Positions 5,387 through 61,770 of a DNA stretch of 64,000 nucleotides are shown piece after piece. Within the stretch, counting starts at the first letter, position 1. Each line of letters opens with the position of its first letter. The position numbers were made by a program, and so were the translations under genes. Origin of the DNA: Azolla caroliniana (Eukaryota > Plantae > Polypodiophyta); NCBI GenBank assembly GCA_043228905.1, contig JBHGNT010000009.1:12834001-12898000 (forward strand), in the 5' to 3' direction. The notes beneath the pieces were generated by a model. The model was not told where the DNA came from and did no database searches. It was given only the letters and a program-made list of their open reading frames with translations.

Positions 5387-6972
5387 TAGTACACAACCTA
5401 CACATGCAGAGGCTCGAAAAAGGCGCCAAGATGCAGAGAGAAAAAACCCCACGCATTGAGACCTTCTCCTATCGTGAACCAAGGAGAACAGACGCAGAGC
5501 GACGCGTTGTCGCGTTGTTACGCGCGTGCGTGGAGAAAGGCGGGACCACGGGGGTCTTGGACTAGGGAGTGACGGAGTGTAGGAAGTCGTACTTCACCGT
5601 TTCCGGGGCATCCCAGAAGCACACCGGAAGCAACCGAAGGGAGAGAGAGAAATAGAGGGAGTGTGCGTTTGACACCGACACACGCGCACACACAGGCCGA
5701 CCCGACTCACGCCCTTATGTACAGGAAACGCAGGAAAGGGGAAGCAGCCGACACCAACAGAGACACCAATATACATAGACAGACGCAAATGTATATATAT
5801 AAAAGGAGGAATACATTCCCGGCTTCGAGCCGGACCAAGGTAGGTTACAGTAGTCGTTGGCTGCCAAGCCGCAGGTCAGGAGCTCACAGGCTTGTCGCGC
5901 CGAGCGGGGTCTTGCACAGGAGACGAGCTGAAGCAAACCCTAAGCAAACAGAAGGGGGAGAAGAAGAAGAAGAAGAAGAAGAAGAAGAAGAACTAACCCT
6001 AAATCTAACGATATACCCTCTAACGCAAAATGGGCAACCCTTTCATAAAGACCGCTCCTTTCCTTTAATAGAACAAGGAGAGGGATGCGTTATAATGTGG
6101 GATAAATCCCGCCTTACATGGGATCGTCTGTCCCGACTTGACTACTCTTCGGCGCCATAAAGGCACACTCGTTATTCACACTAAATGTACAAGGGTGCGC
6201 ACACATGCTGCACCCCGCCGATGTAGCCAATGTTTCCCTGTTTCCGCCTCTGGCCGAAATTCTTCACGACATTCGCCCCCACCTAACCACACATCCACCG
6301 GTATGTGCCAAAACATAGGGGAGAGAACACGAGATTTTCGGCCACGACGACCGGCCGAGTCCTTAGCGCCCTCGTGGGCCCGCCCGGTTTTGTCCTCCAC
6401 TTCGAGCAAGACCACCCCCCCGTCCACACAAACTGTCGCCGCCTTCCGGTCCACCATCCTCGCCGAATGGTCTCGAACCGTCAGCGCCATCCGATCCGCC
6501 ACACTCGACGATGTTCGCCGAGTCATTGCCTCCACCCGATCCGCGACGTCCACCGTGGGTCCTTGAACCACCGACTACATCCGACCCGCTGTATCCGATG
6601 CCCGTGCTTTCCTCCCCGTTCGGTCCTCCCGAACGTCGTCGCTGACCCGGTTGCTCTTCCTTTGTCCGGCTCGTATATCCTCCGGATGAGCTCCCGGTCG
6701 CATGCCGGATTCCGCCCTTTGCGTGCCGCACACCTCGGCGTGCCGATTCTCTTCACTCCCCGCTTGCCTTCCGTAGGCTTTCCCCGTTGTTCACCGTGCT
6801 CTCTCGCGGTAGAGCGTACTGTCATCCCGACCTCCGTGTCGGTGTCCCTCGAGGCTCTCGTTACCGCTTCGCCTCAACTTGCGCCCTCTTGGCCCGCTTG
6901 GCCTTGCATGCCCTCCGGGAAGCCGCGCTTCCTCTTCCCGGCGCGTAGCCCGTTGCTCTCTGCGCACCTTCT

Positions 6973-9252
6973 TCATTTCTCAAGACACGACTCTCCGCTC
7001 ATGCCGATCGCGCTCGGCCCATGTCGTCGGTCTTGGTGTTTCGCCGCGCCATCCTTCGTCCCACAGTTGCCTCTCGAAGGCTTGACCTGACCGTCATCGT
7101 CGGTCAATCGTTGTCGCCCATGCGCCGTATGCATGATTGTGTCTTGGCCCTCCACCGGCCGTAATGCATGCGTCTCATGTCGCGCTTCCGCCGTAGACCC
7201 GACCTCCGCGTTGGTCTCCAACTCCTCGCCACCACCCACCGTTTCTTCGTTCTCCTTTCTATCCACGACCGCCGATGCCTCACGGGTAGGTGTGGAGGGT
7301 TCCTCCCACTCTCGGTCCACCACGGAGTCCTCGCCTCTCAAAGGCTCAATGGGTCCACCGTTTCCGGTCACTCGTTGACGCTCTCTCAGATGCATGCTCG
7401 TTCTTGGGCCCTTCACCGACCGTAATGCATGCTTCGTGTTACGCCCTTCATCCGTCGTAGACCCGACCTCCGCGTCGGCCACTTCTTCCTTTGTCACCGT
7501 AGCCCGTTCCGCCCCGGGCTCGCCATCTTGGACCCGCTCGTCCATCATCTCATACCGGATACCCGCTCCAATAACTTTGTCCGCTTCGGCCTCCGACTCC
7601 TCGCCGCCACCTGCCGTCTCTCCGGTCTCACGTTGATCTGCAACCGCCGAAGTCTCTAGAATGGGTGTGGAAGGTCCCTCTCGCTCTCGGTCTTCTAGCA
7701 AGCCGTGATCACCATGCCCACTAGGCCTCCTATCCTCACGGCCACCGCCCATCTCTCCGGTCTTATGTCCGCGCTCGGGCGCAACCGCCGAAGTCTCCGG
7801 CCCCGGTGTCGAGGGATCTCGCCTCCATCTACTACAAACCTCCTCTTCGTCATTTCGGTTGCCCGCCTTGCCGCCGCCACCGTCCGTCTCTCTAGGTCTC
7901 ACACCGGTTCTCGGGCCGGTTGCCGGAGTTTCTAGGACTGGTGTGTGGAAGGTCGTGGCACCGCCGCTCGTCTCCTCTTCTTCCTCGATTTCGCAAGCCT
8001 CGAGTATGCTCGCGAAATCCTCGTAGAACGTTTCAGGCAACCGCGTCCCGAAACTTTTGCCCACTCTCGAAGTGGCGTCCATTGCTCTGTAGATATCGGC
8101 CTCATCCATGGCCGTCCTCTTTCCACAAGTCGAGAGGGTCGCTAGCTTCGCACCCTCTCCCATATCGTCGTCGTGGTCGCCCGCCTTGCCGCCGCCACCG
8201 TTCGTTACCCTAGGTCTCACATGGGCACTCAGGCCGGCCGTCGGGGTCTCTTGAACCGGTGCGTGTAAGGTAGCAACGCCGCCACTCGTCAATGCTATGC
8301 CCGTAGCCACCTCCATTCGGACATCGTCGTCCGTGGCTACCCCGCCTCCGTATATGCAAGCCTCAATTATTCTTGCCGCCTCCTCTTCCACGGTCTCCTT
8401 ACCGTTGTCTCGGTTGCCCACCTTGCCGCCGCCACCGCTCGTCGCTCTAGGTCTCACGCCGGCAATCGGGCCGACCGCCGGTGCCTCTAGGGCCGGTGTG
8501 TGTAAGGTCATGGCACCGCCGCTTGTCTCCTCCTCACTCGGTGTTTCGGGCCGCCATGTCCCGAATCCGTAGTTACTGGCCTCCATGGCCGTCCATTCGC
8601 CGCAAGACGAGAGGGTCGCTCTTTCCGCACCCTCTCCCATGTCACCATCGTGGTCGCCCGTCTTGCCGCCGCCACCGCCCGTCACTCTAGGTCTCACACC
8701 GGCTCTCGGGCCGGTTGCCGGAGTCTCTAGGCCCGGTGTGCGTAAGGTCCTGGCACCACCGCCCGTCTTGTCCCTGCTCGATGTTCCGGGCCTCCATGCC
8801 CGAACTCCCTCATGTCCGCTCGAACCGGCGATCGCCGCCTCACCGTCCCCAACCTCGTCCTCGGTCGATCTTTCTCCGCATGTCGAGAGGGTGGCTCGCT
8901 CCGCACCCTCTCCCGTGGTACCGATGTACCATCCTCTTTCGTCCTCCTCATCCTCCGATCCGCTCAGGCCCGACTCCGCAATAAGCCCTTCTTCGACTTC
9001 GATTTGTGCCTCTACGATCTCGTACGCTTCCCGCACCAAGGCTTCGATGTCGAGCTCCTCCGAACCGATTTGCGTTGAGCTCTCTTCCGGCGATAGTGCG
9101 TAGTCGGTCGCCGCTCGCGGGCCGCGTTGTGGCCGACCGACTCTCATCGCATTGTATGCACGCCCATTCCACCTCGTTCCAATCTTCGGTGAGGCCGTAC
9201 GCACCTTCATCGTCTTCGAGGTAAGGAAAACTGGCCATTCTCCCCCTTTCAT
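6973..9252 (-). CDS. 759-aa low-complexity, internally repeated ORF inside element E, function unknown
   Basis: Open frame in the ORF track with four copies of GGAxTLHTPxLETPAxGPxAGVRPRxTxGGGGKxG and other internal duplications. Coding status uncertain. Confidence 0.45.
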   Translation of the reverse strand: MKGGEWPVFLTSKTMKVRTASPKIGTRWNGRAYNAMRVGRPQRGPRAATDYALSPEESSTQIGSEELDIEALVREAYEIVEAQIEVEEGLIAESGLSGSEDEEDERGWYIGTTGEGAERATLSTCGERSTEDEVGDGEAAIAGSSGHEGVRAWRPGTSSRDKTGGGARTLRTPGLETPATGPRAGVRPRVTGGGGGKTGDHDGDMGEGAERATLSSCGEWTAMEASNYGFGTWRPETPSEEETSGGAMTLHTPALEAPAVGPIAGVRPRATSGGGGKVGNRDNGKETVEEEAARIIEACIYGGGVATDDDVRMEVATGIALTSGGVATLHAPVQETPTAGLSAHVRPRVTNGGGGKAGDHDDDMGEGAKLATLSTCGKRTAMDEADIYRAMDATSRVGKSFGTRLPETFYEDFASILEACEIEEEEETSGGATTFHTPVLETPATGPRTGVRPRETDGGGGKAGNRNDEEEVCSRWRRDPSTPGPETSAVAPERGHKTGEMGGGREDRRPSGHGDHGLLEDREREGPSTPILETSAVADQRETGETAGGGEESEAEADKVIGAGIRYEMMDERVQDGEPGAERATVTKEEVADAEVGSTTDEGRNTKHALRSVKGPRTSMHLRERQRVTGNGGPIEPLRGEDSVVDREWEEPSTPTREASAVVDRKENEETVGGGEELETNAEVGSTAEARHETHALRPVEGQDTIMHTAHGRQRLTDDDGQVKPSRGNCGTKDGAAKHQDRRHGPSAIGMSGESCLEK

Positions 9253-9526
9253 TGACCGACTTCAAGAATACTGGGACCTTGTCCGCCCCCACCGATTCTT
9301 GATCCCGGACCAAAAGTTGGGAAAACCGGAGATCGAACTCCCGGAATGCCTTCATCGCGCTTCGAGGAGCCTTTGTCGACGACACCCATAGATCGAACTC
9401 GCATCGATCGTACTTGTACGCCTCTTCTCGTCTTTCTCTCCTTCTTGCGTAATCCCTTGCCATTCTCGTAATTACTTTCGCGATGTCTCCGTCTTCCATC
9501 TCCTTCCTCCCTTGCCGCCTCTTCAC
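8948..9526 (-). pseudogene. Gag remnant of element E
   Basis: FREFDLRFSQL..D...GADKVPVFLKSV..LEDDEG..GLTEDW aligns with the gag of the Trp element at 31320-39420 (LHEFEKRF..LDTSKVLLFIKSV..LETNNGLTTD). Confidence 0.7.
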
Positions 9527-9539
9527 GTCGGGTTCACCA
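9522..9539 (-). promoter_or_regulatory. Primer-binding site complementary to tRNA-Trp
   Basis: TGGTGAACCCGACGTGAA is the reverse complement of the recalled plant tRNA-Trp 3' end (TTCACGTCGGGTTCACCA). It lies 4 nt from the LTR. Confidence 0.85.
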
Positions 9540-10406
9540 AATATGTCGCGTTGTTACGCGCGTGCGTGGAGAAAGGCGGGACCACGGGGGTCTTGGACTA
9601 GGGAGTGACGGAGTGTAGGAAGTCATACTTCACCGTTTCCGGGGCATCCCAGAAGCACACCGGCAGCAACCGAAGGGAGAGAGAGAAAGAGAGGGAGCGC
9701 GCGTTTGACACCGACTCACGCACACACACACACACACACAGGCCGACCCGACTCACGCCCTTATGTACAGGAAACGCAGGAAAGGGGAAGCAGCCGACAC
9801 CAACAGAGACACCAATATACATAGACAGACGCAAATGTATATATATAAAAGGAGGAATACATTCCCGGCTTCGAGCCGGACCAAGGTAGGTTACAGTAGT
9901 CGTCGGCTACCAAGCCGCAGGTCGGGAGCTCACGGGCTTGTCGCGCCGAGCGGGGCCTTGCACAGGAGACGAGCTGAAGCAAACCCTAAGCAAACATGAA
10001 GGGGGAGAAGAAGAAGAAGAACTAACCCTAAATCTAATGGTATACCCTCTAACGCAAAATGGGCAACCCTTTCACAAAGGCCGCTCCCTTCCTTTTATAG
10101 AACAAGGAGAGGGATGCGTTATAATGTGGGATAAATCCCGACTTACATGGGATCATCTGTCCTGACTTGACTACTATTCGGCGCCATAAAGGCGCCCTCG
10201 TTATTCACACTAAATGTACAAGGGTGAGCACACATGCTGCACCCCGCCGATGTAGCCAATGTTTCCTGGTTTCCGCCTCTGGCCGAAATTCTTCACGACA
10301 GCGTGAAGATAAATCGTAGAGAGCTCGCACACAGAGAACCCCCTCCCTCAAAACTTTCTCTCTCACATTCTCCCCACCATCAAACCTCTCCGACCTCGAC
10401 GCAGAG

Positions 10407-15235: not shown

Positions 15236-15701
15236 TGTTGTCCGCCGTAATAGTAACTGACTGACAAAAGCGCAGAAGCATTAAATATAGTAAAGCGTAA
15301 AGAAACACATGTAATGGTTCACGCGGGAAGCGTGAATGGCTAAAGGCCCTGCGTATATAAATGGCAGAAATCCTCTATAAGAGGTAGCTTGTAATTTTGG
15401 TGCATAGAGCGTTTCTCTAAGAGAATACTATCTTCTCTGATTTCTGTGTAGATCTATGGTTTTATCTACTGTGTTTCTTGTTCTTTGTTGCGTACTATTA
15501 ATCATAAGGGTGTAGGCGTAAGTGCGGATACTAGTGCACTTCCTAAGGAGTTCGGTTGTAGCCATCTCCCTTATACGCTACTAGGATACGAGGGAGTATC
15601 CCATTACGTATTACGGCACGACGATACCATTCCTTGCAACACAGTCACCTTGAGGCCTACGTCGAAGGACTGACCGTAGGCAGTATTCCTAATCGGTAAC
15701 A
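15236..15701 (+). repeat. Probable 3' LTR of element B
   Basis: TGTTG start directly after the conserved motif, TATA-like boxes, probable end GGTAACA. No second copy in the window, so the right end is approximate. Confidence 0.6.
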
Positions 15702-17144
15702 CCAGATCACTGCTGTACGATCGATAACTTCGATCGGAGCTTTGGTTGACTCGAACCTTCTTGTTCGGTCAGTACAATTTGCAATTGGATCACACACCAA
15801 TCGGCTAGTTCAATATGGATTACATGGGTCCTGGATTCGGTCAACTATTAGAAAACATGTTGAATTTCTTGTCTCACATACAAATGGGCACATCATCCAT
15901 GGTGAATATTCCTCCTCCTCATCCAAATTCTTCGTCTACAATGTTTTCCCCACAACCTAAGGAAGAAGAGCCACAAAGAATTACACAAGAAGAACAAGAG
16001 CACGAAAATGAGCATGAACGAGAAGAACATGAACAAGAAGTGCCCCAGATTGCATCTGATGAAGCTCCTGATACTGTGACTGGTTATATAGTATTTGTGC
16101 TATAGCTTAAGGAGCATCCAAAATTTAAAAGAAAGGGTGATGATCTGTTTGTAGAGCATGCCTTGAACCTTACAGAGGCTCTGTGTGGCTTCCAATTTGT
16201 TCTTCAGCATCTTGATGGACGATAGGTGCTGATTAAATCAAATGTTGGAGAGATTGTGAAAGCAGATCAATTCAAGGCCATTAACGATGTTGGCATGCCT
16301 ATGTATCAGAGACCTTTTATGAAGGGCAAGCTTTATGTTCAATTCTCTATAGAAGTTCCAAAATCAGGGTCTCTGTCTTTAGACCAATGTAAGGCTTTGG
16401 AAGCCATATTGGCCCCTCGGCCATCAAATGGAATGACAAATATAAAGGTTGAAAAATGTGAAGAAATTATTTTCCAAGATGTGAATATGGAAGGTTTGAG
16501 CAAGGTGCTCGAATTTTTGCTTAATATCAGAGAAGACTTCATCAATATGAGGCCTAAGCAATATCGAGATAGAGGGCCTGATATCCATCGTGGAGATGCG
16601 ATTTGCCGCCGTTGTTGCCGCTACCGCCATTGCGGAGATGAGAATTGTTGTTGCCGCCGCCGCCATCGTTGCCACCGTCGTCGCAATCGTTGTCGACGCC
16701 GCCATATTGATGTCGCTAGAATACCAGTCAAAGAAGATGGAGAGGAGAACGAAGAGAAAAGGGCAGAAAGAAATTTACAAGAACTCGAGGGCACGCACTC
16801 GAATTTCAAAAGCTCGAGGGTAGAAGAAAAAATTTCAAAAGCTCAAGGGCATGACATGAGATTTCAAAAATTGGAGGGCAGAATCCAGAGGCCGAAAATA
16901 AAATTTCAAAAAATTTGAGGGTAAAAATTTTAAAGACCAAAGGGTAATCTATATATATATATATAACTCACTTCACATGATGAAAGAAAGAATACACAAA
17001 TGCACAACACGATTTCACGACCCATGCTACATTGAACTAGCTGATTGGTGTATGATCCAATCGCGACTTGTGCTGACCGAACGAGAAGGTTCGAGTCAAC
17101 CAAAGCTCCGATTGAAGTTATCGATCGTAGAGCAGTGATCTGGT
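15701..17144. repeat. ~125-bp inverted repeat pair (15701-15830 and 17019-17144) enclosing a DnaJ fragment
   Basis: ACCAGATCACTGCTGTACGATCGATAACTTCGATCGGAGCTTTGGTTGACTCGAACC... is the reverse complement, with a few mismatches, of ...GGTTCGAGTCAACCAAAGCTCCGATTGAAGTTATCGATCGTAGAGCAGTGATCTGGT. Confidence 0.9.
16058..16493 (+). pseudogene. Fragment of a type-A DnaJ/Hsp40 (J2/J3-like) C-terminal domain, intronless, two TAG stops
   Basis: DEAPDTVTGYIVFVL*LKEHPKFKRKGDDLFVEHALNLTEALCGFQFVLQHLDGR*VLIKSNVGEIVKADQFKAINDVGMPMYQRPFMKGKLY...CEEIIFQDVNME. Confidence 0.9.
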
Positions 17145-17202
17145 CAAGGGATTTCCAACCGTTGAGACGACTGATGGAGTTCCAGTCGAGAAGAGTTGGC
17201 AT

Positions 17203-17247
17203 GGCGAGTGGGTTCACCGTGCAATGCATTGTCCCACAGGCGTGCCA
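17203..17247 (+). promoter_or_regulatory. tRNA-Arg 3'-half mimic / inverted PBS (copy C)
   Basis: GGCGAGTGGGTTCACC-GTGCAATGCAT-TGTCCCACAGGCGTGCCA, then TG, then TGTTAC at 17250. Confidence 0.7.
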
Positions 17248-17249
17248 TG

Positions 17250-17592
17250 TGTTACCGTAAGAATATACGGGGAGGCATAAGGGTATGTGTAATGATGTGG
17301 TTGATGTGTATGTGTAAAGTAAATGAGTATGTGAGGATGACTCTGTGTGAGCACATGCACAATTATGTGCATGTGACAAGAGTGTAACGGTCGTCTCTTT
17401 TGTAACGGTCATTATTTACCGTTACATTATGTATTATATAAACCCCTTATGGGGCATCTAATGGATATACATTTTTCCCCTCTCATTTTGTGTCATATTG
17501 TATTGGTCTTTCTCTCTTGCTCTCTCTCTAACTTAACCCCCTTAGGAGGGGGGTGAAGCCATTCTAGGTTTCACCCCCCAACCCCAACAACA
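17250..17592 (+). repeat. Probable 3' LTR of element C
   Basis: TGTTAC start after the motif, TATATAAA near 17435, CT-rich segment, ends near CCCCAACAACA. Right end approximate. Confidence 0.55.
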
Positions 17593-17593
17593 A

Positions 17594-17919
17594 TGTGCAG
17601 GTTTAATGGAAGCTACAAGAATAAGTAGAGAGAGCAGGAGAGACAGAGAGAGTAGAACAGTAAACCTTAATTCAAAAATAATGAACACTCTCTATACATA
17701 CAATGTTCTCAATGAGCACTTTTATACAAGTCCTTAAAGGACTGACATGTACTTCAAAGCTCGTACCGAGCGACTGACACTAACTCCCAAAAATATGCCT
17801 ACATACTAGGCTAGGATCGTAGGCCTCTAACGGCCTATTGGTTACACTCTGATCCGGACATTGATACGGCTCAGGCTTACTCAATCGATCCAGATCAGGT
17901 TGAGCTTGCTCGCACAACA
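17594..17919 (-). repeat. Solo or remnant LTR related to copia-A LTR
   Basis: Shares GAGCACTTTTATACAAGTCCT..AGGACTGAC and terminal GTTGAGCTTG..CAACA with 5000-5386. No TSD found. Confidence 0.7.
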
Positions 17920-20518: not shown

Positions 20519-22293
20519 TTAAGAATCTGGGGCAAGCTCTAGAGCTGAAATTCCATAAGGACCAAGTTCGATCTCCAACCATTCACGTTCTCGTATCCAA
20601 TCGCTTCTTGCCTTGGATTTCCCTTCGGCAAAATCAGGTGATTGATTCGAACCCATAGTTATAGTATGCTCTCTTTTTGTCCTCCATTTCTTCTTCATTT
20701 TTGCTTGTATCACATTAGAACAGAGGCTTGAAACATTTATGCTATTTGAACTACTAATTGCACTACTATGTGCTCCTGAAGTTATATTAGAAGATTTTAT
20801 TAGCCTCTGTTCTCTTTTTATAGACTTTACTAACCGCTTATGCTCTTTCCGTATCTCCTTCTTATGTGCCTTTTCTGCATCCACATCTTTAAAGTTCACA
20901 TGAGATACATCCTCGTGTGGAACAGTTTCTTGTGTATGACTTTCCTCATATCTTACTTGCATTTTAGAAACGCCATAACTAATATCTTTACTGCTTGATT
21001 CTCCATAATGGACGTCGTCATGCTTGTTTCCTCTATGACATGATGTATTGAAAGAGTCAAATCTAACATTCTTGGTTTGTTGTTCCTCCCCCATTGTGCG
21101 TGGCTGGACATTATGAAGACTGTTTCTGGTGGCAATTGATTCAACTTCACTCTTTAAGAAAAAGTATACAGAGAACCGCTTCATACCCACTTTCTTGAAT
21201 CTAAGAGGTTGCAAATCTTCATCTGTTAAAAGATATCGCTGCTTTGCCTCCATCTTAGTCACCAAGGAATATTTCTGACATGCATGCTCACATCTGTGGC
21301 AGCACAAAATCTCATTGAGAATCTTCCGTCATGTCATCGTGATTGTGATCATGCTTATTGTTTGATTATAACCAAGCTGAATGAAATAGGAAAAAAAATG
21401 GATTCTATATATAATCAGACTTTGAACTCTTTCAGAGGCATACCTCTCACAAAGTGGAAAGCGAGAGCTAGATAAGGTGTGTACATATGAAGTATGCTCC
21501 TGACATTCAATGCATCTTCTGTTCTGTTTGCACAAGCAAATAAAGTAAGTTCTAAATAATAATCACTAAACTTCTTCTAAGTAATGGACTTACATCAATT
21601 TTGTGAAGCCCCAACCAATATAATCACTTATTTAAACGCCTTCCCATGTTTTATGTGATTTCTTGTTAACATACAGCATAATCATGCTACTGAAATGCAC
21701 CATGTCAAATTTGATGTCAAAAGAATCATGCATCATATCCTCAAACAAAAGATCCTTCACATGGAACTAGTTTATTTTTGGAAAGTTTTGTGCATTCTAG
21801 TGAATTCCAGAGGTATTTTGGTGTTTCACCCTCTCTCTGCTTGACCTCATCATATCTAGGGATTTCTCGCCCACGCCAGTGGAAATCTATGGGAGCGTGT
21901 ATATATCACTTATCCACAAAGTTACTGCTAACAAGAAACATCATGTGAAGGAATTTCATTTCATTCCCCTTCCATCTTCGTCTTCAGCTTTGATTTTCAT
22001 TTTGATTGTCTTGTTCATTTTCATCTTCACTTTCCACTTCCGAGAAAATTAAAAAAAACCTGTTTATAGCAGAACATTCGATGCCAAGAAGGCCACGGCG
22101 AAGGAGGAGACGTGAAAGGTTCTCGGAGACCCCATTCTAAGACGAAGATTGGGAACCAGAGGTTGTCTGAGGTAGAGACTATAGAGAGCCTCCTGTTGCA
22201 ACAGGAAAGCCTGGCCAGAGAGTCACGATCCAAGAGCGGAAGCACAGAATGGAGCAAAACAGAGTCGGGGATTGATTCCAAGGGTGCCTCCAT
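20519..22293 (-). CDS. F-box protein fused to an XPA-like Cys4 zinc finger/DNA-binding domain; 3 exons (22293-22060, 21523-21444, 21293-20519), about 362 aa
   Basis: Exon 1 is an F-box (LESIPDSVLLHSVLPLLDRDSLARLSCCNRRL...DNLW). Two GT-AG introns (536 and 150 nt) join in frame to give CIEC-x17-CERC-EHACQKYSLVTKMEAKQRYLLTDEDL. Confidence 0.85.
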
Positions 22294-22602: not shown

Positions 22603-25600
22603 TCATTTCCATCCAAGTCTCTCGAAGAGAAGCGGAAGGTCAAAGGGTTGCGATGTGGATGTGGCCCGTGGTCCCCATGTAAGAGGTACCCCAACCATAG
22701 CTTCTAGTCGACGTAGCTCACGTTCCCTTATCTTCTTAATCTTGTCTACTCCGCGTTGACTTGTTTTGAAGCCCAACATTCGAGGGCGTTTCGTTATTCT
22801 TTGCATTTCTGCTTCCTCAAGGGAGAGGCCGAGCGGCGTAAGTGTATCCACATTCATCGTCTCCCCTTGTTCCTGAAAAATTACACTAGTTACATGGTGA
22901 TGAATACTAAGAGGGTTATCGTTAGCACTTTGTAATTTATTCTCCCTATGTTGTTTTAGGTCTAAGATATATCTACCTAGTCTCTTTACATTCGGGGTAT
23001 CTAATAGTTTGGAGAGGGTGGGAGAGGGTCCTAGTATGTCTTGGTATTCCGCTCGTATCTCGGCATAAGTTGGGCATTTGCATGTGAAGTGATACTCATC
23101 CGCTATCTCTATGTGGCATAACCTACATAACCTTTCCTCTCTAGGGACTCTATTAGCCCGACCATTCTCAATCTCAAGTTGGTGAGATGATATCCTAAGT
23201 TGTCCAATGGCCACCCTTAGTGCATTTGATAAGAATGTATCTAAATATCTTGGTCGTGTAATAAAGCCTAGCGTAGAGAAGCGCAAGAAGTGTTCCTTAT
23301 AGTACACCATTTTAGATGGGAGTGGTTCTCGTGGGGTGATCCATTTGTATCGAGTGTAAATTTGCCATATTTCTTGGCGTATCACTTTATTACGATCTTC
23401 GTGAGAGATTAAAGTTTGATCAGTCCCATGGTTGTACTTAAGGGGAGGTAGGTTATTAATGTCTATGCCGTTCGCACGGAGCCAACTCACCACGATGCTA
23501 TACCAAGAGCTAGTGTCGCCAGACACATATAAAGATCGAGACGCCTCAAAGGCTCGACGGGATATCCTATCTTGTGGTTGGCTATGTATCCGATGAATAA
23601 AAACTACCACTTGAAAGAGTGCTTCTACTAACATCGGGGGTAGACTGAACTCAGCTCTAATAATGTCATGTGGTACTGTCGATTTGCTTCGGAGTTGACG
23701 TGATAACATCGTCACTAAAGGTCTCTCTAATTGCGTCCACATGAAAGATGGTAAACCTGGAGCCCATACTACTGATGCATACATGAGGAACGGGGTCACT
23801 AATGAGTCAAAAAGCCATCCCTTAGTCCGTGGCTCTTGAAAGTATGCCTGATGGCATTGTCTCTCTAAGAGTGAGAGGGATGCATACCCTCTCGTTAGCC
23901 TATCTTTGACTGCCTGGGTCATCGAGAATTTACCTGAGCGAGCACTAAAGGTGACTCCCAAGTATACATACGATCCCACTACCTCAACTGGTTTATGAGA
24001 GAGGATTAGGTGACATTGACTCCTAACTCGGGACGATGTATGAAAGATAAGGACTTTAGTTTTCGCTAAATTCACTACCAGTCCTCGTTGTGTACAAAAG
24101 TCATCCAGGGCATTAAGATGCTTTTGTAGGTCGTGTTCCGACTCTGAGAGCAAGACAATGTCGTCTGCGTAGAGTAAGAGACTAACTGGCGTCTCCCCAA
24201 TAGCTACTCCCTTGCCTCCCTTACGAGCAATAAAATCAGTGATCTCATCAATGTAGATCCCAAAAAGAGTCGGTGATAGGGGGCAACCCTGTTTTACACC
24301 AATGGTGCTAGTGAAACAATCGGATAGGCCACCTGGGCATCTTACACACCCAGAGACTTGCTCATATAGGGCATAAATGGCCCAGATCATGTCATCTGGT
24401 ATCTCCAAGCTCTTAAGTCTATCAAACAACCTTTCCCTAGGAACCGTGTCAAAGGCCTTGCGAAAGTCCACAAAGCAACAATATAGTTTCTTCTTACGAG
24501 CCTTTGTCTGGTCAATTAAGCACCTGAGTGTGAAGATATGGTCAATAGTGGAGAAGGCTCGTCTAAAGCCAGCTTGCTCAGGTGCTCGAAGACTTAATGT
24601 TTCCATATAATCACTGAGCTCCGCTTCCATTACTGCACCATATAGTTTAGCGAGCGTATGACCTATCATAACGGTCCTATATGTATTTGGGTCCATTGAG
24701 TCCCCTCCTTTATGTATAGGGGCCACTGTGTTCATGGCCCATTGTGGTGGAAAACCCTCGGCGAGGGCGCGGTTGAAGATTAGAGTGAGAAGGGGGGCTA
24801 GGCACTCTCGAGCATATATGATGTGCTCGGCACACAATCCTGTGTGGTCCATGGATTTCCTATGTTGTAATTTTTTGATGACCTTCGTGACCCTAGAGGT
24901 CGTGAAAAGTGTCCCCATGGTAGGTCGAGGTGTGGAGGGCATTGGAATGGGTGGTTGGTTCGGGACATGGTAGAGTCTCTCAATATATGTGTGCCAAATA
25001 TTGGGATCCTCGATGGGTGTTTGTGGTCTCGGTTCCCGTAGCCTCTTCCATGCGAGGGCACAATCCCTACTCATGAGCATATGGTAGAGTTCCCAATATT
25101 GAGATGCTTCCCAAGCCCGTCTTTTACGACGTGTCATCTTGCGCATCTCTTTGCGAGCCTGTACTGAGGAAATAGTACCACTAAGCCGCGATACTTTAAG
25201 TTGTCTATACAACTCTCTACAATCCTCATCATACCACTTGTTCTATGGCATAGACCCAACTCTACTATGATTGGAGTCTTTCGTGTATGGGAAGCTACTA
25301 GTTGCTGCTGAGTGGAGGATGTGTGTGAGTTCTGTAGTGAGGTGCTCTAAAGGCAAGGAAGAATCAAAAGAGGAGAGATGCGCTTGAACATGTCGAGAAT
25401 AGATGTCAGCGAGCTCATGCGTGAAATGGATTATAGTGCGATGGGTTGGTTTACTAGAGTTGGTGGCGTGGGAGGCGTCACATTTTAGCTCAAAGTATAG
25501 GAAGCTATGGTCTGCGCCAATGGGGCATGGGGCCACCCGGAAGGAGCTAACCATGTGGGTAGCTTCAGGGCGTCCTATTAGGTAATCAACTGTGCTTTCC

Positions 25601-26346
25601 CCTCCTCCATGTGGGAAACATGTGAGCTCTTCCGAGCCCGGCCACTTGGCTAAGCCATTATATATGATCATCTGGTGTCGGCTTCCAAGTTCAAGCAGAT
25701 GATGGCCAAAGCTTGTGGCGTCCGCACCTTGATCTTTTGATGTACGTGTTATGCCTAAGGCTAAAGGGTCGACATTCACCATTTCTAGGTTTCTATCCAT
25801 CTGAAATATTGTGCATTGGCGGGATTGGGTTCTCGCATTGAAATCTCCTACAAGGAAGACTTCCCCTTGAGAAGAATATCGGATTATGTCATCCAATAAA
25901 GGTTCGTATGGAGAAGGCCCATGTGGCGTTCCTTCATCAACTATACTCGCCACTCCAGCCATATTATACCGAGATCCTTTCGGGGGGAAGTAACAAATGG
26001 CAATAAATATCACCTGATCTTTGCTAGTGAGTACTTTCACCCACATAAAACGGGCTTCTGGGTCTTTCTTTAGTATTTCTATCCTACTATGTATCTCTCT
26101 CCGAAATAATATCGCAACCCCTCCAGACCCTCTAGTAGTGTGTCGACGTGAGGTTTGTCTAAAGACAGATTCCCAACGAAAACCATCAACTCGTGGTAAT
26201 CCTCGATTTGGACTTTGATGTGTTTCTACCAAAAAAAGTATATCAGATACCCTCAAAATCTCCTCTAGACGGCCAGGGTGTGTCCAAAGTGCACCGTTAC
26301 AATTCCATAAACTCATCCTAAGTCTATTATTTGTCACATGGGCCAC
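22603..26346 (-). pseudogene. LINE ORF2p (AP endonuclease, RT, CCHC) with one in-frame TAG at 25243-25245
   Basis: WNCNG, LVETH, VGDFNA, TVDY and ADH endonuclease motifs; QAGFR, VDFRKAFD, GVKQGCPLSP and YADD RT motifs; CRLC..EYHFTCKC. ORFs 25243-26346 and 22603-25212 are in the same frame. Confidence 0.92.
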
Positions 26347-26352
26347 ACGCCG

Positions 26353-27144
26353 TCAATTGGCAGCGCGATCATTTATTATGACCCGTCCGTCTCGGTAGAA
26401 GGCACGATGCCCCTCTTTACGAGCTTGTATGACTCGCGGCATACAAGTTTTACGATGCTCAATTTGCATCTTGGTCAAGTCTTCATCGAGGTAGATGGGC
26501 TCCCCGCCCAATCCTCGAAGAATTGGTCTCTTTTTAAAAAAGGCGATTCTAGATTCCGAGTCCTTAAATTGAAGAACTAAAGCTCTTTTCCTAGTGGTGT
26601 CACGCCCTACCCTCCAAGTTTTAGTGATTGGTAGGGCTTCATATCCCAACATTTTACCCAAGGTTTGTGCATCTTCGTCGGGAGATGCCCCTTCCTTGAG
26701 CCCAGTAACTCGTACATTTAGGCGTCGAGCTTGACGCATTTTTTCCTCCTCGAGGGTAGTGTTTACAATATTTTCGTCCTTTAGTTCTTTTTTAATATTA
26801 TGTTTTACTACATCAACCCACCCAGTTTTTGCTAGTTCTATATCACTTTTAACCTCTTCTTTAACTTTTTTTATCTCGTCCTTAATATCCTCTAGAGAAG
26901 ATATTTCACCATCTTCCCTAGATGTTTCAAGGTCCTTAATTCGTTTTTGAAGGTTTACGTTATCTACCTTAAGTTTCGCTACTTCAGCAATAAGCAATTC
27001 TCTTTCTTCCTTATCTTTTTGTTTTTCAGCTTCAATTTCTTTCACCCATTTTTCCATTTTAACGAACCGGTTAAGGACATCTAAAAAATCTTCCTTACTT
27101 ATAATTTCTTCGTTTGTTTCCTTATGGTTTCGTCGAGAAGTCAT
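26353..27144 (-). CDS. LINE ORF1p (coiled coil plus RRM-like/CTD)
   Basis: Heptad-rich N-terminus, RRLNVRVTGLKE, WRVGR and IYLDEDLT motifs typical of L1-like ORF1. Confidence 0.85.
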   Translation of the reverse strand: MTSRRNHKETNEEIISKEDFLDVLNRFVKMEKWVKEIEAEKQKDKEERELLIAEVAKLKVDNVNLQKRIKDLETSREDGEISSLEDIKDEIKKVKEEVKSDIELAKTGWVDVVKHNIKKELKDENIVNTTLEEEKMRQARRLNVRVTGLKEGASPDEDAQTLGKMLGYEALPITKTWRVGRDTTRKRALVLQFKDSESRIAFFKKRPILRGLGGEPIYLDEDLTKMQIEHRKTCMPRVIQARKEGHRAFYRDGRVIINDRAAN

Positions 27145-28566
27145 CTTGTAATTCAAAAGATAAAGAAAGAAAAAGACAAAAGGACAGAAAAAACTTAGCC
27201 GAGCATCGACGTCTTTCGCGCTAGATATGAGTGTAGAAGCACATGTATGCTTGTTTCAGCCGGTGACGTCGTCCGGTAAGTGAAGTACCACGATGAAGGG
27301 CAACGGCTACACACGATAAAAGCGGCCAAGAATCGAGGACGGCGACAATCGGCAAACAACACGCCCAAGAACGACGGTAGACGAAAGAAGATGGCAACGG
27401 TGACGGCGACGGCGACAGTCGGCAGACGGCAGACGGCAGACGGCGGCAGCAGACGACGACGACCGTTGACAAACGACGGAGACGGCGGCGACAGTCGGCA
27501 GACGACGGCGACGACGATAGCAGGCGACGGCGGCGTCAGCAGCAGCAGCGACAACAAGCGGCGTCGTCGGCAGCAGGAGACGGCGGCGACAGCAGGCGAC
27601 GCGGCTGCAGACGACGGCGGCAGCAGATGACGGCCACGTAACGGTCCGAGACAACAGGCGACAAGTTAAGGCGACAATGTATGTACATACATACATATGC
27701 CCCAACAAAAGTTCAAGAGTCCGAGATATGTATATGTATATATAATCTGCGCTCGCTCTGCTTTGCTCTACCTTTGATCACCTTCAACACTATTATGCTT
27801 TCCACACATCTTCGGTCAAACACAATCCTTGTACGAATTTCTCTTACAATCACAATGTGCACTCTTGATTGCAACATTTATTGGTAAATTTCTTGATCAT
27901 CGAGAGTTGCTACTCTCACTTTCACATGTATTACGTGAAATGTAATATTTTTGGACTCATGGGTCATATTTAATCTCCAAAGACAATAATAAATTCTATC
28001 TATCCCTATTTTCTTAAGATACCAAATTACCACCTAAGTTTCCATGAATGTAGGCGTGTGTGCGCGTGCATTGCCTTGCCATCATCTTAACAAACGAGAT
28101 GTTGCACTTTGATGGTTCTCTGAGAACGAAGGGGGTGAATGTTCTTGTAAAGAGTTAGAAACGAGTTACAACTCAATTCAATTGGGTGTTTCTGCCCTTT
28201 GGATGGATGAACAATCACATGTGGCCGCCAAAATACCAAGTGAAATAGCGAAGAGTCTTGAATCTACCTACTCTGACACAAAATTGCTAAGGTTGCTCTA
28301 CCACTCCATGTTCACGAACTAATGCATAGTCTCTCACTTTCCTTTCTCAAGGCCATTCAATAGCATATAAATGACTACTCCCTTGATTAATTTTGATCAC
28401 TCAATTGTTGACCGGTCGTCAAATTCAAAGAGATGGCATATGGATATATATACACCTTGATTTTTCCATTGATTATATTCTAGTATATGGGTAGGTTGTT
28501 CTATGCTTACCTTGTTCACAAACACAAATTATAGAATGTAAAGCATTTTGTTGTAGACCTAAAACA

Positions 28567-46248: not shown

Positions 46249-48722
46249 TGTTACCCGACCGACAAAGGAGTTAAATACCAGAATGTGAAAGGGATTGTTA
46301 TTCAGAATCTATTTTAATTAAGTAGAATAGATTATAATTAAGTAGTGAACGGACGGACCGGAATCAGTATGCCGATCCGTTTCCGGACCGGTTCCGAACA
46401 GGTGCCGGTTGGCACCGTTTTGTACGCAGCACCGGTGACCTATATAAAGGCCCGGTTACAATGTAAAACTTTAACGGAGAATTAATATAAGCTTCTTGTT
46501 TTATCTTCACGTATTGATTACCGTTCTGTATTAATTGTTATATCTTACGCGTGTATTAAGTGAATGCCCTATTGCTAAGTAGCCAATTAAGTCGGATTAA
46601 TCATCGTGTCTTAAGTTATCTCGCCGTAACACCCCTTTGGTGAAGTGTCTTCCGTAGACAACCTGTGTTAGGCCATTGTCCAACCCTAAGGATTAACATA
46701 GTTTTTGGTGACCACGATTCCTGCACAATCGCAGCGAACAGCGGCGGGAATCGATGACGCGACCAACGAACGACCTGGTTACGGAGCGAGCAAGGAGACT
46801 TGTTGAACCACTGAGGAAGCGAGAGGCTTTCCAGCAAACGGCAGAAGAAATCAGAGTGGATCGCTCATTTTCCAAGGTGATCCGGACAGTGGCCAAGGAG
46901 TCACTTTGATTATCACAAAACGACTACCCGGACGAAGAAAGCAGCCTAAGCAGCCTAAGCAGCCTCCGGGAAGCGGAATCCCTTCTCCAGGCATTGGTAG
47001 CGGGGGAAGGTGAATCCGAAGCATTTTTGGCATTTGAATCGGGTTTGGACAGGGAATACAGTGCACAGACGAACTATCGCAAGAGTAATGACACCCTAGA
47101 CGGACCAGAGGACGAGGAGTCGGATACCTTGCCGACACCGGAACCAGAATTGACAAGGATGGAACATCCGGCACCGGAGGTCGACCACACTCTGGAACCA
47201 GAAGTCGAGGAAGAGAGACCTCTGACACCGGAAGTTGAGGAGGAGAAGCCTCCTACACCGAAAGAGGAGCGCGAAAGACCTCCGACGGCGACAGAGGACC
47301 GAGAAAGACCTCTGATGCCGACAGAGGAGGAGGAACGACCACCGACACCACCAGCCCATGTACCGACACCAGACGACGATATGCCGTTCCAATATCCCAG
47401 ATATCGGGATGATCCGGATGCGGAAGCCCACGTCCATGCGTTTCAACGGACCTGGGAGGCAAACCATATGTCCCAACGCTTAAATGCAACCGAAGAGGAA
47501 CGTTCAAGAAGGGCAGAGTTCGGCATGACCTTGGAGGGACCGGCCGCCAGATGGCACCGAACACAAGATCCCAACACCATCCCCAGGTTTGAAACATTAA
47601 AGACAAAATATTTGCATTTCTTTCACAAGGAGATGGACCAACGGGAAATGGTAGGCTTATTTTACAGTATCCGGTAGGAACCAATGGAGAACATTCAATA
47701 GTTTGTCATCCGGTTCCAGCGGATCCACAGTCAGCTCAGCCGAACACCACCGAAGGAAGAAACAAAGGCCATATTCTTAGCAGCACTCTGGGAACCCTTA
47801 CGAACGGTGTGCACCGTCATTGATTTCCGCACCAACAGCATAGATCACGTGATCGACCAAGTTGGGGAAATGGAAAACTCAAGTTCATGGCTAACCATGG
47901 GCGTACTTCAGCGTGCACTACCGACAGATGAGGACCTCCGTTTCTAGCAAGCAGTTCAATGTACAACATGCCTAAATGCCGGACATTCGGCGCTGGAATG
48001 CACCATGCATTCCCAATGCTTGCTCTGGCACTCCAGAAGTCATACAATGGAACGGTGTGAGTATAACTTGTTAAATCAACAAGCACCACCGGTCTGGGAA
48101 ATTGAACCACGAAGCAACCAAGAGGAAGAAGAAGAACGCTGGTGGCGAGAGGAGCGCTATCGGCCGGCACAAGATGTCCAGTACCATGATTGAAGAGACG
48201 CTTATGACCGGTATGACAGACAGGATAGATATTGGGACTATAATGGACGGTATGAGAGATACAACCGGGATCACTCCCCTGGTTACAACCAACGACGGGA
48301 CGACTATGGCAAGTATGACGACCAACAACATCAAGGTTACCGAAACAAAAAGAATTTCAACAAGAAACGTCATTTCAACAAAAAGGGGGGTCATCCACGG
48401 GAACCGGAAAAGGGCGTTCCAAGCCGCCAACCAGACCAAAACCAAGCACTTACCACAGGACCTCCACCAAGCACACACGCCGAATCCAGCAACACTTGGA
48501 AGCCGTACTGCTATTATTGCCAGCAAGAAGGCCACTATAGTAATCAATGTCCGGCGAAGAGCTACGACAAGCGACCAATTGTAAACATGGTAGACGCGGA
48601 AGTCGCGGACATACAACAAGTCACTACAAGATCAAAAGGCAAAGCCTCGGAGTGGGAAACTCAAGAAGCCATCCGGAAGCAGGCAACCGAATGGGTGAAG
48701 AAGGAAAATGAGAGGAATGCGG

Positions 48723-51700
48723 TGTTGGGATTTCGGTCCCTTTCGGATGGGATGGTCGGATATCGGAGATGAATGCCGACAAGCCCGGTTTCGGTTTCGG
48801 ATCCGGATGACGAAGACCCCGGTTTCGGTACCGGATGACGAATGTACCCGGAGAGCGATCCGGATGCAGGGACATATCCGTGAATATGTTCGCTATGGGC
48901 CCCTGAGGCTACAGTTGTAAATAGCCCAAAGTCATATAAGTATAAATATGACTTAGGGCAAACAGTTTTGTAGTTGCTTCTCATTTTTCTGTTTTTCCAC
49001 TTTAGAGGAGTGAAGAGAGAGCAGCCGCGAGAGAGATAGAGCGCGAGAGAGGAAGAGGTAGACGCCTCTGTGTATTTCCGCCGCCTGTGGCGAGGACAGC
49101 GAGCTCAAGGTCGTTGCCTTGCAGCTCGCCATTGTATATTTCTCTGTGCATAGTTTGGTTTGGAGTCTCGCACTCCCGTGGTTTTTCCCGTATAGGGTTT
49201 TCCACGTTAATCCCTGTGTATCGTGTCTTTCTCTGTATTTCCTATTTTCTGCTGCATTGATCCGCGATTACTCGGTTGTGGCCGAGGGAAGAAGGTGAAT
49301 AGAAGGGCCTATTCCCAACAAACTGGTATCAGAGCGACTGTTGCAGAAAATGGAAGGCGGCGGCAGCGGGCAGCCGATGATGATGGTGCTGAATGCGCAG
49401 AATTACGCCGACTGGAAGATCAAGATGGAGGATCTTCTGATTGTTCGGGACCTGTACGAACCGATTGACAGGTCGGAAATTCCGAAAGGGGTACTTGAGT
49501 CGGAGTGGAAGCTCCTGAACCGGAAAGCCGTAGCGACGATCCGACAATATGTCGATGTAAGCGTCCTACAACATGTGGCGAACGACACCAACGCATATGA
49601 GATGTGGAAGAATGCGTTGAACCGGACCTCCCTGATGAGGAAGATAGTGAATCTCAAGTACCGGGACGGCGAGAGTATGGTTGAACACGTAAGCACGTTC
49701 ATGGGATTCGTGAATCAGCTTGCGGCGATCAAGTTCCCGTTGGAGGATGCAATGCAAGCCATCATCCTGATGTGTACATTGCCGGAAAGCTGGGAGAACT
49801 TGGTGGTGACTCTCAGCACCTCGTGCACCGAAGATAACTTGTCCTTACAAACGGTAAAGACAAGTATTCTGAATGAAGAAGCGCGTCGGAGAGATAAGGA
49901 ACCGGCCTCCGACCCGAAGATGCTGTTTACCGAATCGGATCGGGGAAGACAATGGAACCGGAGTCCGCAAAGACGGGAGAAGTCGGGGACCCGGTCGCAG
50001 TCAAGAGGAAGGCCCACATGCTTCCACTGTGGGAAGCCGGGGCACTTCCGAAAGAATTGTCGGCATTACCGAAAAGACAATGGAACCGACAACACCGATT
50101 CGAAGAAGTCACCGGAGAGAAACGGTGCATACCGGGGAGCCACGGACCGGAATGGTTCGGATCGGCGAGGACAGGACCGGAAAGGAACGACGGCACTCGC
50201 GGCAAGTGAAGAGGAGATCATGCTCATCACCGAAGAAGGTGAACTAAACATTGCCGGCGATGAGACGACCTGGGTGGTCGATTCCGGAGCATCGTTCCAC
50301 CTGACCCCGGAGAGAAGATACTTCTCATCCTACACAGCCGGTGAGCATGGCTGTGTTCGGATGGGAAATGAAGGTACGTGCCGGATTGCCGGCATCGGAG
50401 ACGTGTGGTTGACAACCCCGACCGGATGCAAAATGCTGCTGAAGGATGTCCGACACGTTCCGGAGGTTCGATTGAACCTGATTTCGGCCGGGAGGCTAGA
50501 CGATGAAGGCTACACAGGTAGCATCCGGAACGGCGTAATGAAGTTCAGCAAGGGGAGCCTGATAGTGGCTCGGGCCCGGAAAGTCAACACACTGTACCTG
50601 ATGAATGCCCGGTTATGTCCGGAAGAGTTGAATGTGGCAGCCGACACTGCCGGTGAGCTGTGGCACAAAAGACTGTGCCACATGAGTGAGAAGGGGATGA
50701 AGAGGCTTGCAGAAGACAACCTCATCCCAGTGAAGCATGTGCACCTGGAGAAGTGCACCGATTGCCTGGCCGGTAAGCAGAACCGAACCTCCTTCCACTC
50801 AAGGCCACCGACGAGACGTAGCGCACCATTGGAGTTGGTGCACACTGACGTGTGTCAGGTAGAGACGAAGTCACATGGTGGAGCCCAGTACTTCGTAACA
50901 TTCATTGATGATCACAGCCGGAAGCTGTGGACGGCACCATTGAAGACAAAGGACCAAGTGTTGTGCGTCTTCAAAGAACTCCACGCGAGAGTGGAAAGGG
51001 AATCCGGCAAGAAGCTGAAAGCGATACGAGCGGATAACGGAGGGGAATACCGGGGGCAGTTCCAGGAGTACTGTCGCTCGAAGGGAATCCGGCTCGAGTT
51101 TACTGTGCCGAAGACGCCGGAACTGAACGGGCTGGCCGAGAGGATGAACCGGACCATAATGGAGAGGGTTCGGAGTATGCTGGCGCATGCGAAATTACCC
51201 AAGGGGTTTTGGGCTGAGGCAATGTCGACGGCGACATATGTGATAAACCGATCACCCTCAGTACCTTTGGACGGAGACACGCCGCAGAAAGTGTGGACCG
51301 GTAAGGAAGTGTCCTACCGGCATCTGAAGGTGTTCGGGTGTCTCGCATACGTGCATGTGGCAAAGGACCGGAGAGGAAAGCTAGATCCAAAGACCCGGCC
51401 ATGCATATTCCTCGGTTACGGCGACGACGAGTTCGGCTACCGAGTATGGGACCCGGTCGACAAGAAGATATTCAGGAGTCGAGACATCATCTTCATGGAG
51501 GACAAGACACTCGCCGACTGGGAGTCGGAGAAGAAGGTAAAGAGCTCCAAGTCGACCGGTGAGGATCAACTCTACAAGGAGCAGTCCCGACCGGCAAGGG
51601 ACCGGTTAGCACTCGAGGATCCGGCCGAAGACGGTGAAGAAACCGAACCGGCCGAAGAAGACGAAAATGATACCGGAACCGGCCCCGATCCCGAAATGGA

Positions 51701-57000: not shown

Positions 57001-57582
57001 GGACGTCTGATAGAGCTCATAAGTGACCAAGGTGGGCACTTCTTAGGGCAAGTAGTGGAAAGTTTGACGACGTTTTATGCGGTGGTGCACAAACGGAGCA
57101 CTCCCTATTATCCGCAAGCCAATGGATTAGCTGAGTCAACAAATAAAACACTACAGAACATCCTGTGAAAAATTGTCAATGAGATCTGGACGGATTGGGA
57201 TACAAAGCTGCACAGTGCACTTTGGGCCTACCGAACGGCATATAAGACAAGTATCCGCACAACACTGTTTCGCCTAGCATTCGGATTGGAAGCAGTGATG
57301 CCGGTAGAGTTCCAGGTACCGAGTTTACGAATACAGATTCGGGAATGCCTAAATGAGAAGGTATCGGAACCTATTCGGTTAACCGCGCTGTGCGAATTGG
57401 AAGAACATCGGCTAGCCAGGATCATACACCTAGAACTAGAGTAGCGGCGAAGGAAAGCGTTCGTGGATCGTCACTGAAAAGGGAACGAAAAGATGTTCGA
57501 AATCGGTAAGCTGGTACTAGTATTCCAAACCCGGATGGGTAAGATGCCGGGGAAGCTACGGTTTTGGTGGACCGGACCATAC

Positions 57583-58247: not shown

Positions 58248-58944
58248 CATACTGGATTACACGTGAGTTCAATGGTTCCTACTAGTTAGGGACACTCGCC
58301 GGTGAGGTTCTGGGTAAATGGGTCAATGGGTTCCGACTCAAACCATACAATGGACTCATGCCAAGAAACCCATTTGAACAAGTAAAGGCCGACACAGAAC
58401 TAGACACCAGTAAGATGCAAGAAACGGCAACACGTTCAGCAATCGGCAAGCGCGAAGCCGGTAAGAGGGAGCACGAGCCAGCAAATGACGCCACGGCAAG
58501 CAGTCCAGCAGCCGGAAAGTCCCACAATCCGGATAGGGGTTCAGTGGGACCGGATGCGAATTAACCAAACCATTTTTACCAAAAAATAAAAATAAAAAAT
58601 CAAATCAAATCAAATCATGCAAGGGCGAGGGGTGAACGGACACATGCAAGAACAAGGAGTGAACAAACACTTCGAAAAGGTACGTAGTGGGCTATTAATA
58701 GGATATTAAACTGCCACCACATGGCACGTCATTCTATTTTAGTACACGACGTGCACACGCGCAAGTCAGAAAAAAAAAGGCGGCAACATGCAACAAGAAA
58801 ACTCCCACCGCGTGGAAACCTTCACATTTCGCGAACAAAGGAGCACAAAGGAGCACAAGCAATCAAAGATCAGCAGACGCGAGCCCACACACAGAGCCTC
58901 CTGAAACACACCCCTCACCAGTGCTCACCGACCTCGAAGAAGCC

Positions 58945-61764: not shown

Positions 61765-61770
61765 GGGCTA

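What the first reader, a model, noticed from the sequence alone, without database searches (positions are those of the whole stretch)
15701..17592. Inverted-repeat cassette carrying an intronless DnaJ fragment, ending in the tRNA motif and an LTR (element C): possible gene-capturing non-autonomous partner
SEEN: ~125-bp inverted arms (15701-15830 and 17019-17144) enclose an acidic ORF (15815-16105) fused in frame to a DnaJ C-terminal domain fragment. About 60 nt beyond the right arm lie the tRNA-Arg motif and an LTR start. The left arm stops exactly where the LTR of element B ends. INFERENCE: B inserted into the left arm, whose missing continuation would mirror 17144-17247 and supply a normal PBS TGGCACGCCTGTGGGAC, the same symmetric design as 63059-63959. 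As I recall, plant J2/J3 genes have introns in this region (near DEA/PDT and VKP/D), so the uninterrupted fragment suggests capture through mRNA.
Basis: partly seen in the sequence, partly recalled or inferred. Interest (0 to 1): 0.7.

Follow-up and report, generated by a model that had tools for sequence, protein, structure and literature searches.

The report
Fern retroelement carrying spliced gene pieces

Summary
C is the 3' part of a non-autonomous LTR element in a fern. The arms are real (113 bp, 92%) but are not terminal repeats. The right arm is the family's ordinary hairpin region about 65 nt before the tRNA-Arg motif. The left arm is an inverted copy found joined to the cargo only at this locus. 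The 'acidic ORF' is a piece of a host RING E3 ligase gene, joined to a DnaJ piece and an unknown third piece at short overlaps; two stop codons break the frame. Host DnaJ contigs break off at both predicted intron sites, so mRNA capture is supported. Processed sister copies exist, also in a second species label. Relatives share LTR, arm and motif but carry other cargo (pyrophosphatase minus two introns, HSP70, AAA ATPase), all in sense. None of 16 full internal regions has mirrored ends, so the symmetric design is not a family trait. The sequence left of B could not be read. This is Bs1-type capture, a known process. The tRNA motif at the polypurine-tract position was found by this scan many times before on other DNA of this genome; cargo polarity adds independent support for that orientation.

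The parts
15236..15701 (+). 3' LTR of element B, a later insertion into the left arm (context); expected target duplication CCAGA
   Evidence: contigs end at 15701; B's extra ORF resembles that of autonomous elements
15702..15814 (-). left arm: inverted copy of the family's 3' hairpin region, joined to the cargo only at this locus
   Evidence: (91.4% to the right arm, 4 shared rare alleles)
15813..16072 (+). captured piece of a host zinc-ribbon/RING-H2 E3 ligase gene (the 'acidic ORF')
   Evidence: other contigs continue upstream in RING frame before 15813 and one leaves at 16072
16058..16493 (+). captured, spliced piece of a type-A DnaJ (J2/J3-like) mRNA, lacking introns at 16066/67 and 16265/66, without 3' end or poly(A); stops at 16103 and 16223
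16487..16605 (+). third foreign piece, donor unknown; occurs in other sequence contexts
   Evidence: loose ends; only protein hit is a copy of the same cassette, P0124
16606..17030 (+). family-type GCC-rich repeats and purine-rich 3' region
   Evidence: (75% to L020 from 16734)
17031..17143 (+). right arm: the family's conserved 3' subterminal region, predicted three hairpins (17042-17133)
17208..17247 (+). sense copy of the tRNA-Arg(UCU) T-arm and 3' end, split by a hairpin, 2 nt before the LTR, in place of a polypurine tract
17250..17592 (+). complete 3' LTR of C (TG...CA, 343 bp)
   Evidence: 86% to L020; same end point as family 5' LTRs
17593..17919 (.). target: a copia-type LTR lacking its first ~48 nt, which should lie beyond C's left end; expected target duplication ATGTG

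Best explanation
C is the 3' part of a coding-free LTR element carrying spliced, sense-strand pieces of a RING E3 ligase gene, a DnaJ gene and a third unknown source, likely gathered when reverse transcriptase switched templates between co-packaged RNAs inside particles of an autonomous Ty3/gypsy partner. SHOWN: family anatomy (LTR, short Arg PBS, variable middle, hairpin arm, tRNA motif, LTR); intron loss; short overlaps at three junctions; sister copies with the same RING-DnaJ junction; different cargo in relatives; an autonomous element (L063) with the same short Arg PBS and 3' motif. INFERRED: mobilisation in trans by that lineage; template switching as the joining step; amplification of the chimera by retrotransposition; priming of the second strand at the tRNA motif. 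The left arm is likely a later one-off: a switch onto an antisense template (the nascent minus-strand DNA, or an antisense RNA of the same subfamily) that cut into the RING piece and copied the 3' arm backwards. B then inserted into it and A into B. The chimeric frame has decayed and is likely a pseudogene.
For: Host-like DnaJ contigs end in a TTGCAG acceptor just before 16067 (2 contigs each in X1 and X3); five long contigs lay only from 16262, 16268 or 16292 to 16493 and go on in DnaJ frame; ~92%-identical intron-free contigs bridge both sites in X1, X3 and X11. Overlaps: 2 nt at 15813, DEAPD vs SDVPPD at 16058-16072, 7 nt at 16487-16493. L005 lacks two GT-AG introns present in L006. HSP70 in L038 and an AAA ATPase piece in L049. 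Identified pieces are sense in 5 of 5 within C and closed units (P 0.03) and 7 of 7 with two open-ended units (P 0.008). No gag/pol hit lies inside any PBS-to-motif region; the 3 of 43 C-like loci with hits have them in flanks. The arm lies in right-arm orientation in 35 of 36 hits. Arm divergence (8.6%) resembles sister-copy divergence (7-9%). Inverted self-pieces also occur in L061 and L038.
Against: C's 5' end is outside the window, so two LTRs and a target duplication are not shown for this copy. Only 3 of 14 distinct full internal regions gave an identifiable host piece; Pfam hit 2 of 149 frames sent (148 of 434 candidate frames plus one window frame). The relatives are short-read metagenome contigs of a related plant and may be chimeric: 13 of 19 scorable 3' LTRs run straight into a PBS, and L006 may be a path into the host gene. 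RING and DnaJ sit in one element, so the polarity counts are not fully independent, and three frames were picked by eye. D in this window has a different 5' PBS, and C's LTR resembles A, B and D only at the motif and termini, so the true helper is not identified. Covariation support for the arm hairpins is weak (2 of 27 pairs; 118 of 500 shuffles reach it). Junction overlaps were not tested against a simulation.
Confidence: 0.75

Rival explanations
1. One reading: the left arm continues as a mirror of 17144-17247 and gives a long PBS after a direct 5' LTR. It could arise in one round: after a fold-back switch the minus strand would end in the tRNA motif, and the plus-strand strong-stop DNA could anneal there, giving a viable symmetric element.
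For: The junction lies at the 5' side of the arm, as fold-back predicts; the arms share 4 rare alleles and are closer to each other (91.4%) than to 15 other family arms (at most 88.6 and 90.5%). Mirrored ends occur at 63059-63959, and in L038 an inverted PBS abuts an LTR start.
Against: 0 of 16 family internal regions is clearly mirrored. The closest analogue, L061, begins with an inverted LTR end, not a direct LTR plus PBS. The comparison arms come from another organism, so closeness may only mean the same subfamily. The junction is not shared by sister copies.
Confidence: 0.17
2. The arms are terminal inverted repeats of a Pack-MULE or Pack-CACTA-type DNA transposon that captured genomic DnaJ DNA and sits inside an LTR element.
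For: Inverted repeats of ~113 bp around gene fragments look like a Pack-TIR element.
Against: No 2-11 bp target duplication at the arms (the left flank is B, so this test is weak). The right arm continues into family sequence and is single-orientation in 35 of 36 hits. Introns are lost. Sister copies lack the left arm.
Confidence: 0.02
3. The pieces entered at the DNA level: existing processed pseudogenes (made by LINEs) or cDNA were patched into a resident element by double-strand-break repair, and sister copies arose by segmental duplication; the left arm is ectopic recombination with a neighbouring inverted copy.
For: Short overlaps at junctions also fit microhomology-mediated repair (established knowledge). 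A LINE lies nearby. The number of sister copies is small.
Against: The DnaJ piece has no 3' end or poly(A). All 7 identified pieces are sense. Different relatives carry different spliced pieces at the same place.
Confidence: 0.1

Closest known systems
Maize Bs1 (as described in PMC5131818 and PMC13317346, passages read; the primary paper was not held)
   Same: LTR element with partial exonic pieces of three host genes fused in one frame; one to five copies across related species sharing the switch points.
   Different: Bs1's chimeric ORF is reported as transcribed and translated; C's has two stops and many amino-acid changes. C belongs to a family whose members carry different cargo and has a tRNA-like motif instead of a polypurine tract.
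LTR-mediated retroposition by microsimilarity-guided template switching (Tan et al. 2016, PMC5131818, passages read)
   Same: Partial retrocopies, several parental genes, short shared stretches at junctions (median 6 bp there), secondary amplification as non-autonomous elements.
   Different: There the retrocopy replaces part of an autonomous element's ORFs; here the carrier is an established coding-free family, and one junction is to an inverted piece of the element itself.
Plant non-chromovirus Ty3/gypsy, OTA group (Neumann et al. 2019, PMC6317226; passages and supplementary table 5 read)
   Same: Candidate helpers (D, L063) have gag-RT-RH-INT, an extra 3' ORF and a 5-bp target duplication; tRNA-Arg PBS is common in Ogre, TatIII and Retand.
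   Different: No polypurine tract; a sense tRNA-Arg 3' copy stands 2 nt before the 3' LTR. No phylogeny was run here. 'Fern' does not occur in that paper's text, and its element table was too large to read.
TRIM / LARD-type non-autonomous LTR elements and template-switch complex elements (Sabot and Schulman 2007, PMC1950507, abstract read; TRIM capture as cited in PMC13317346)
   Same: No coding capacity, conserved structured ends, occasional capture of foreign sequence, hybrids made during reverse transcription.
   Different: Internal length 0.6-2.7 kb (3.5 kb in L006, which holds introns) with ~340-390 bp LTRs; no polypurine tract; patchwork middles.

Membership tests
Non-autonomous LTR retrotransposon | Two direct LTRs with TG...CA ends | tested here: inconclusive
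   3' LTR complete; 5' end outside the window; relatives have both
Non-autonomous LTR retrotransposon | PBS after the 5' LTR | tested here: met
   In relatives only: short Arg PBS in 16 units; L015 holds a whole reverse-copied tRNA-Arg(UCU) at this site in a related family
Non-autonomous LTR retrotransposon | Polypurine tract before the 3' LTR | tested here: not met
   Purine fraction at most 0.6 in 66 distinct motif contexts, which were selected by the motif; the copia in the window has a normal tract
Non-autonomous LTR retrotransposon | No gag/pol coding capacity | tested here: met
   No hit inside PBS-to-motif regions; none in the visible part of C
Non-autonomous LTR retrotransposon | Target-site duplication | not testable with these tools
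   Right flank ATGTG lies in a split copia LTR; left flank not held
LTR-mediated retrocopy (Bs1 type) | Introns of the parental gene lost | tested here: met
   DnaJ; the first site lies inside the RING overlap and is the weaker one; pyrophosphatase in L005 vs L006
LTR-mediated retrocopy (Bs1 type) | Partial copies, no poly(A), short similarity at junctions | tested here: met
   significance not simulated
LTR-mediated retrocopy (Bs1 type) | Secondary copies with the same switch points | tested here: met
   Contigs bridging RING-DnaJ at 91-93% in X1, X3, X11; their flanks are unknown
LTR-mediated retrocopy (Bs1 type) | Transcribed, functional chimeric ORF | tested here: not met
   Two stops; 110-111 of 145 identical to three close DnaJs that are 137-139 identical to each other; transcription untested
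Pack-TIR DNA transposon | Arms are the element's termini, with a target duplication | tested here: not met
   For the family; for this copy not testable

The most novel reading that the evidence does not exclude
In this lineage both DNA strands start on tRNA-Arg sites, so an inverted copy of either end can stand in for the other. Fold-back during reverse transcription then yields viable symmetric elements, C being one, and the coding-free C family acts as a standing mRNA-shuffling vehicle (a retro counterpart of Pack-MULEs) in ferns.
Probability: 0.2. Interest if true: 0.75.

Novelty: new variant of a known kind. Interest (0 to 1): 0.45.

Why it matters
Capture of spliced mRNA by LTR elements is known, so the cassette alone is a good but ordinary example. 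Two things add value. First, the polarity of the cargo shows which strand is the packaged RNA in a family with no ORFs, and that strand places the tRNA-Arg copy at the polypurine-tract position; this argues against a simple misreading of orientation. Second, units of 0.6-2.7 kb that keep only a short PBS, three hairpins and the motif define the minimal cis signals and would be a small substrate for testing tRNA-primed plus-strand synthesis. A family with different host pieces in different members would also be a source of exon shuffling and of small RNAs against host genes in ferns. I found no description of this family or priming route in searches, which cover open-licence papers only.

Tried and rejected
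Scans of viral contigs (motif: 0; cassette protein: 1 unrelated weak locus) and of prokaryote genomes (arm pattern: 0) gave nothing. Rfam: only a chance hit far below threshold. No tRNA gene in the window. No RNA holder listed. The protein atlas gave no answer for the third piece, and its donor stays unknown. L049 had no PDB match. L048, L051 and others gave no Pfam or NCBIfam hit. The family leader is absent from the window. A functional chimeric gene was rejected (stops, drift). Tandem arrays were not claimed, because LTR collapse in assembly explains them equally well; L012, L027 and L063 have repeated ends like circular contigs. 63059-63959 was rejected as the same design. A paper search for DnaJ intron positions (listing only) was not used; the contigs answered it. 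One X2 contig leaves the window at 15707 with 28 letters that were not shown, and the X1 contig across the arm junction has 14 differences; both remain unexplained.

Full report
SETTING. The window is a nest of retroelements from a fern: the best named match to the DnaJ piece is an Adiantum protein. No genome is held. Element D (46249-62267) is a full Ty3/gypsy on the + strand with gag, RT, RH and integrase, 95% LTRs and a GAATT target duplication. A, B, C and D each carry a sense copy of a tRNA 3' end 2 nt before their 3' LTR. A sits in B, and B's LTR ends at 15701, directly against the left arm.

OBSERVATION. The arms are 15702-15814 and 17031-17143, 104 of 113 identical. The frame from 15815 runs through DnaJ but has TAG at 16103 and 16223. 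Other copies read CAG at 16103, and the stop is present in part of the depth of X1, X2 and X3, so it is real. The LTR 17250-17592 is complete and lies in a copia-type LTR that lacks its first ~48 nt, as expected of an insertion whose left end is out of view.

CARGO. The acidic ORF matches residues 62-149 of a 426-aa zinc-ribbon/RING-H2 protein at 83%. Contigs that run on before 15813 read in that protein's frame, and one contig leaves at 16072. DnaJ spans 16058-16493. Laying contigs of four runs on 15790-16800 showed loose ends finishing in TTGCAG right before 16067, the PDT codon, in X1 and X3; five long, ~82%-identical contigs that lay only from 16262, 16268 or 16292 to 16493; and a continuation in DnaJ frame after 16493. 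The first site falls inside the RING overlap and is the weaker of the two. Intron-free contigs at 91-93% bridge the RING-DnaJ junction (X1 record 2, X3 record 25, X11 record 10) and the second intron site (X1 record 3, X3 record 27, X11 record 13). The chimera therefore exists in at least two copies in X1 and X3 and also in the run labelled organism C. A third piece (16487-16605) overlaps DnaJ by 7 nt; its donor is unknown. The DnaJ piece has drifted.

FAMILY. A metagenome scan for the motif returned 108 stretches, stored as 106 loci. Of these, 29 carry the arm, 34 a C-like LTR and 43 either. Sixteen units (14 distinct) run from PBS to motif. Fourteen of them follow a family LTR end or are cut at the contig start; L038 and L051 lack a normal 5' LTR. 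The 5' end is a short TGGCACGCC-type PBS and a pyrimidine-rich leader. It does not mirror the 3' end: scores 14-23 against shuffle limits of 19-24, with only L076 above its limit, and 184 for the control. The arm is a single-orientation 3' element in 35 of 36 hits, mostly 65-77 nt before the motif and sometimes duplicated in tandem. It folds into three conserved hairpins with 96.8% of cells paired but weak covariation. The middles are largely unrelated patchworks. Identified pieces: pyrophosphatase in L005, lacking two GT-AG introns seen in L006; HSP70 in L038; an AAA ATPase in L049; and, in open-ended units that may be assembly paths into host genes, ubiquitin E1 in L064 and a GRDP-like piece in L006. 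Eleven of 14 distinct units gave no identified piece. All identified pieces are sense. L063 is an autonomous element with the same short Arg PBS and the motif. L015 has a whole tRNA-Arg(UCU) with CCA copied in reverse after its LTR, which names the primer; the motif is that tRNA's T-arm and 3' end with a hairpin inserted and one base missing.

LEFT ARM. Depth in bin 15790-15823 is explained by RING contigs starting at 15813 plus one contig in X1 (35.2) and X2 (15.0) and none in X11; X3 shows a similar small remainder, not computed. Those contigs carry the window's own alleles at 15844-15861. So the arm junction is seen only at this locus, while the cargo is shared. The arms are closer to each other than to 15 other family arms and share four rare alleles. 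Their divergence is like that between sister copies, which fits a self-copy made when this copy arose; this is inference. L061 shows a 149-bp, 92.6% inverted self-copy that begins with an inverted LTR end. L038 shows an inverted unit whose PBS abuts an LTR start. Inverted self-pieces thus recur as accidents. What lies left of B decides between a mirror with a direct LTR, an inverted LTR, and an internal antisense capture; I put the first at about 0.17.

MECHANISM. Inferred: the family's RNA is packaged by an L063-like helper; minus-strand synthesis starts on tRNA-Arg at the short PBS; reverse transcriptase switches among co-packaged mRNAs at short similarities; the plus strand likely starts at the tRNA motif; integration gives a coding-free chimera that can be copied again.

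COMPARISON. This matches Bs1 and LTR-mediated retroposition (PMC5131818, passages; PMC13317346, passages). Template-switch hybrids are known (PMC1950507, abstract). tRNA-Arg PBS types are listed for Ogre, TatIII and Retand (PMC6317226, passages and table; its large element table could not be read, and may bear on novelty). Earlier notes of this scan report the tRNA motif many times in this genome; these are unchecked and are not independent support. No note held all the words of my cargo query. Searches showed no paper on this family or on tRNA priming of the plus strand, judged from listings of open-licence papers.

VERDICT. A new variant of a known kind. Gene capture is supported, the symmetric design is not a family trait, and the mirror at this locus is untested. 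Interest 0.45.

Noticed in passing
L015:2079-2160: A whole tRNA-Arg(UCU) including CCA is copied in reverse directly after an LTR, at the PBS position: a fossil of read-through of the primer.
   Followed up: partly
window 63059-63959: 126-bp arms (96%) made of a different PBS, leader and the first ~12 gag codons, around a gag remnant; no matching LTR pair in the window. The PBS looks tRNA-Asn-like (recalled, untested).
   Followed up: partly
L061:134-1231: C-like element whose left end is an inverted LTR end followed by a 92.6% inverted copy of its own 3' region.
   Followed up: partly
L038:500-3206: Two family 3' ends face each other; the inverted unit carries HSP70 and its PBS abuts the start of an LTR in the other orientation.
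   Followed up: partly
C-like loci: 13 of 19 scorable 3' LTRs are followed by the family PBS: tandem arrays or assembly collapse.
   Followed up: no
window 46699-46730: D's 5' PBS is not the Arg type although its 3' motif is.
   Followed up: no
window 48723-54004: Young copia nested in D: 99.7% LTRs and an open 1365-aa polyprotein.
   Followed up: no
window 20522-21328 (-): 269-codon frame with a Pfam XPA_C hit (E 1.2e-6); host gene exon or processed piece.
   Followed up: no
window 5508-10300 (-): Element with 93% LTRs and a 762-codon repetitive frame without a Pfam hit, nested in A.
   Followed up: no
window 22603-27255 (-): LINE with endonuclease and RT frames.
   Followed up: no
L040:1062-1137 and 2756-2828: Two tRNA-Lys-like sequences in inverted orientation, possibly SINE heads.
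   Followed up: no
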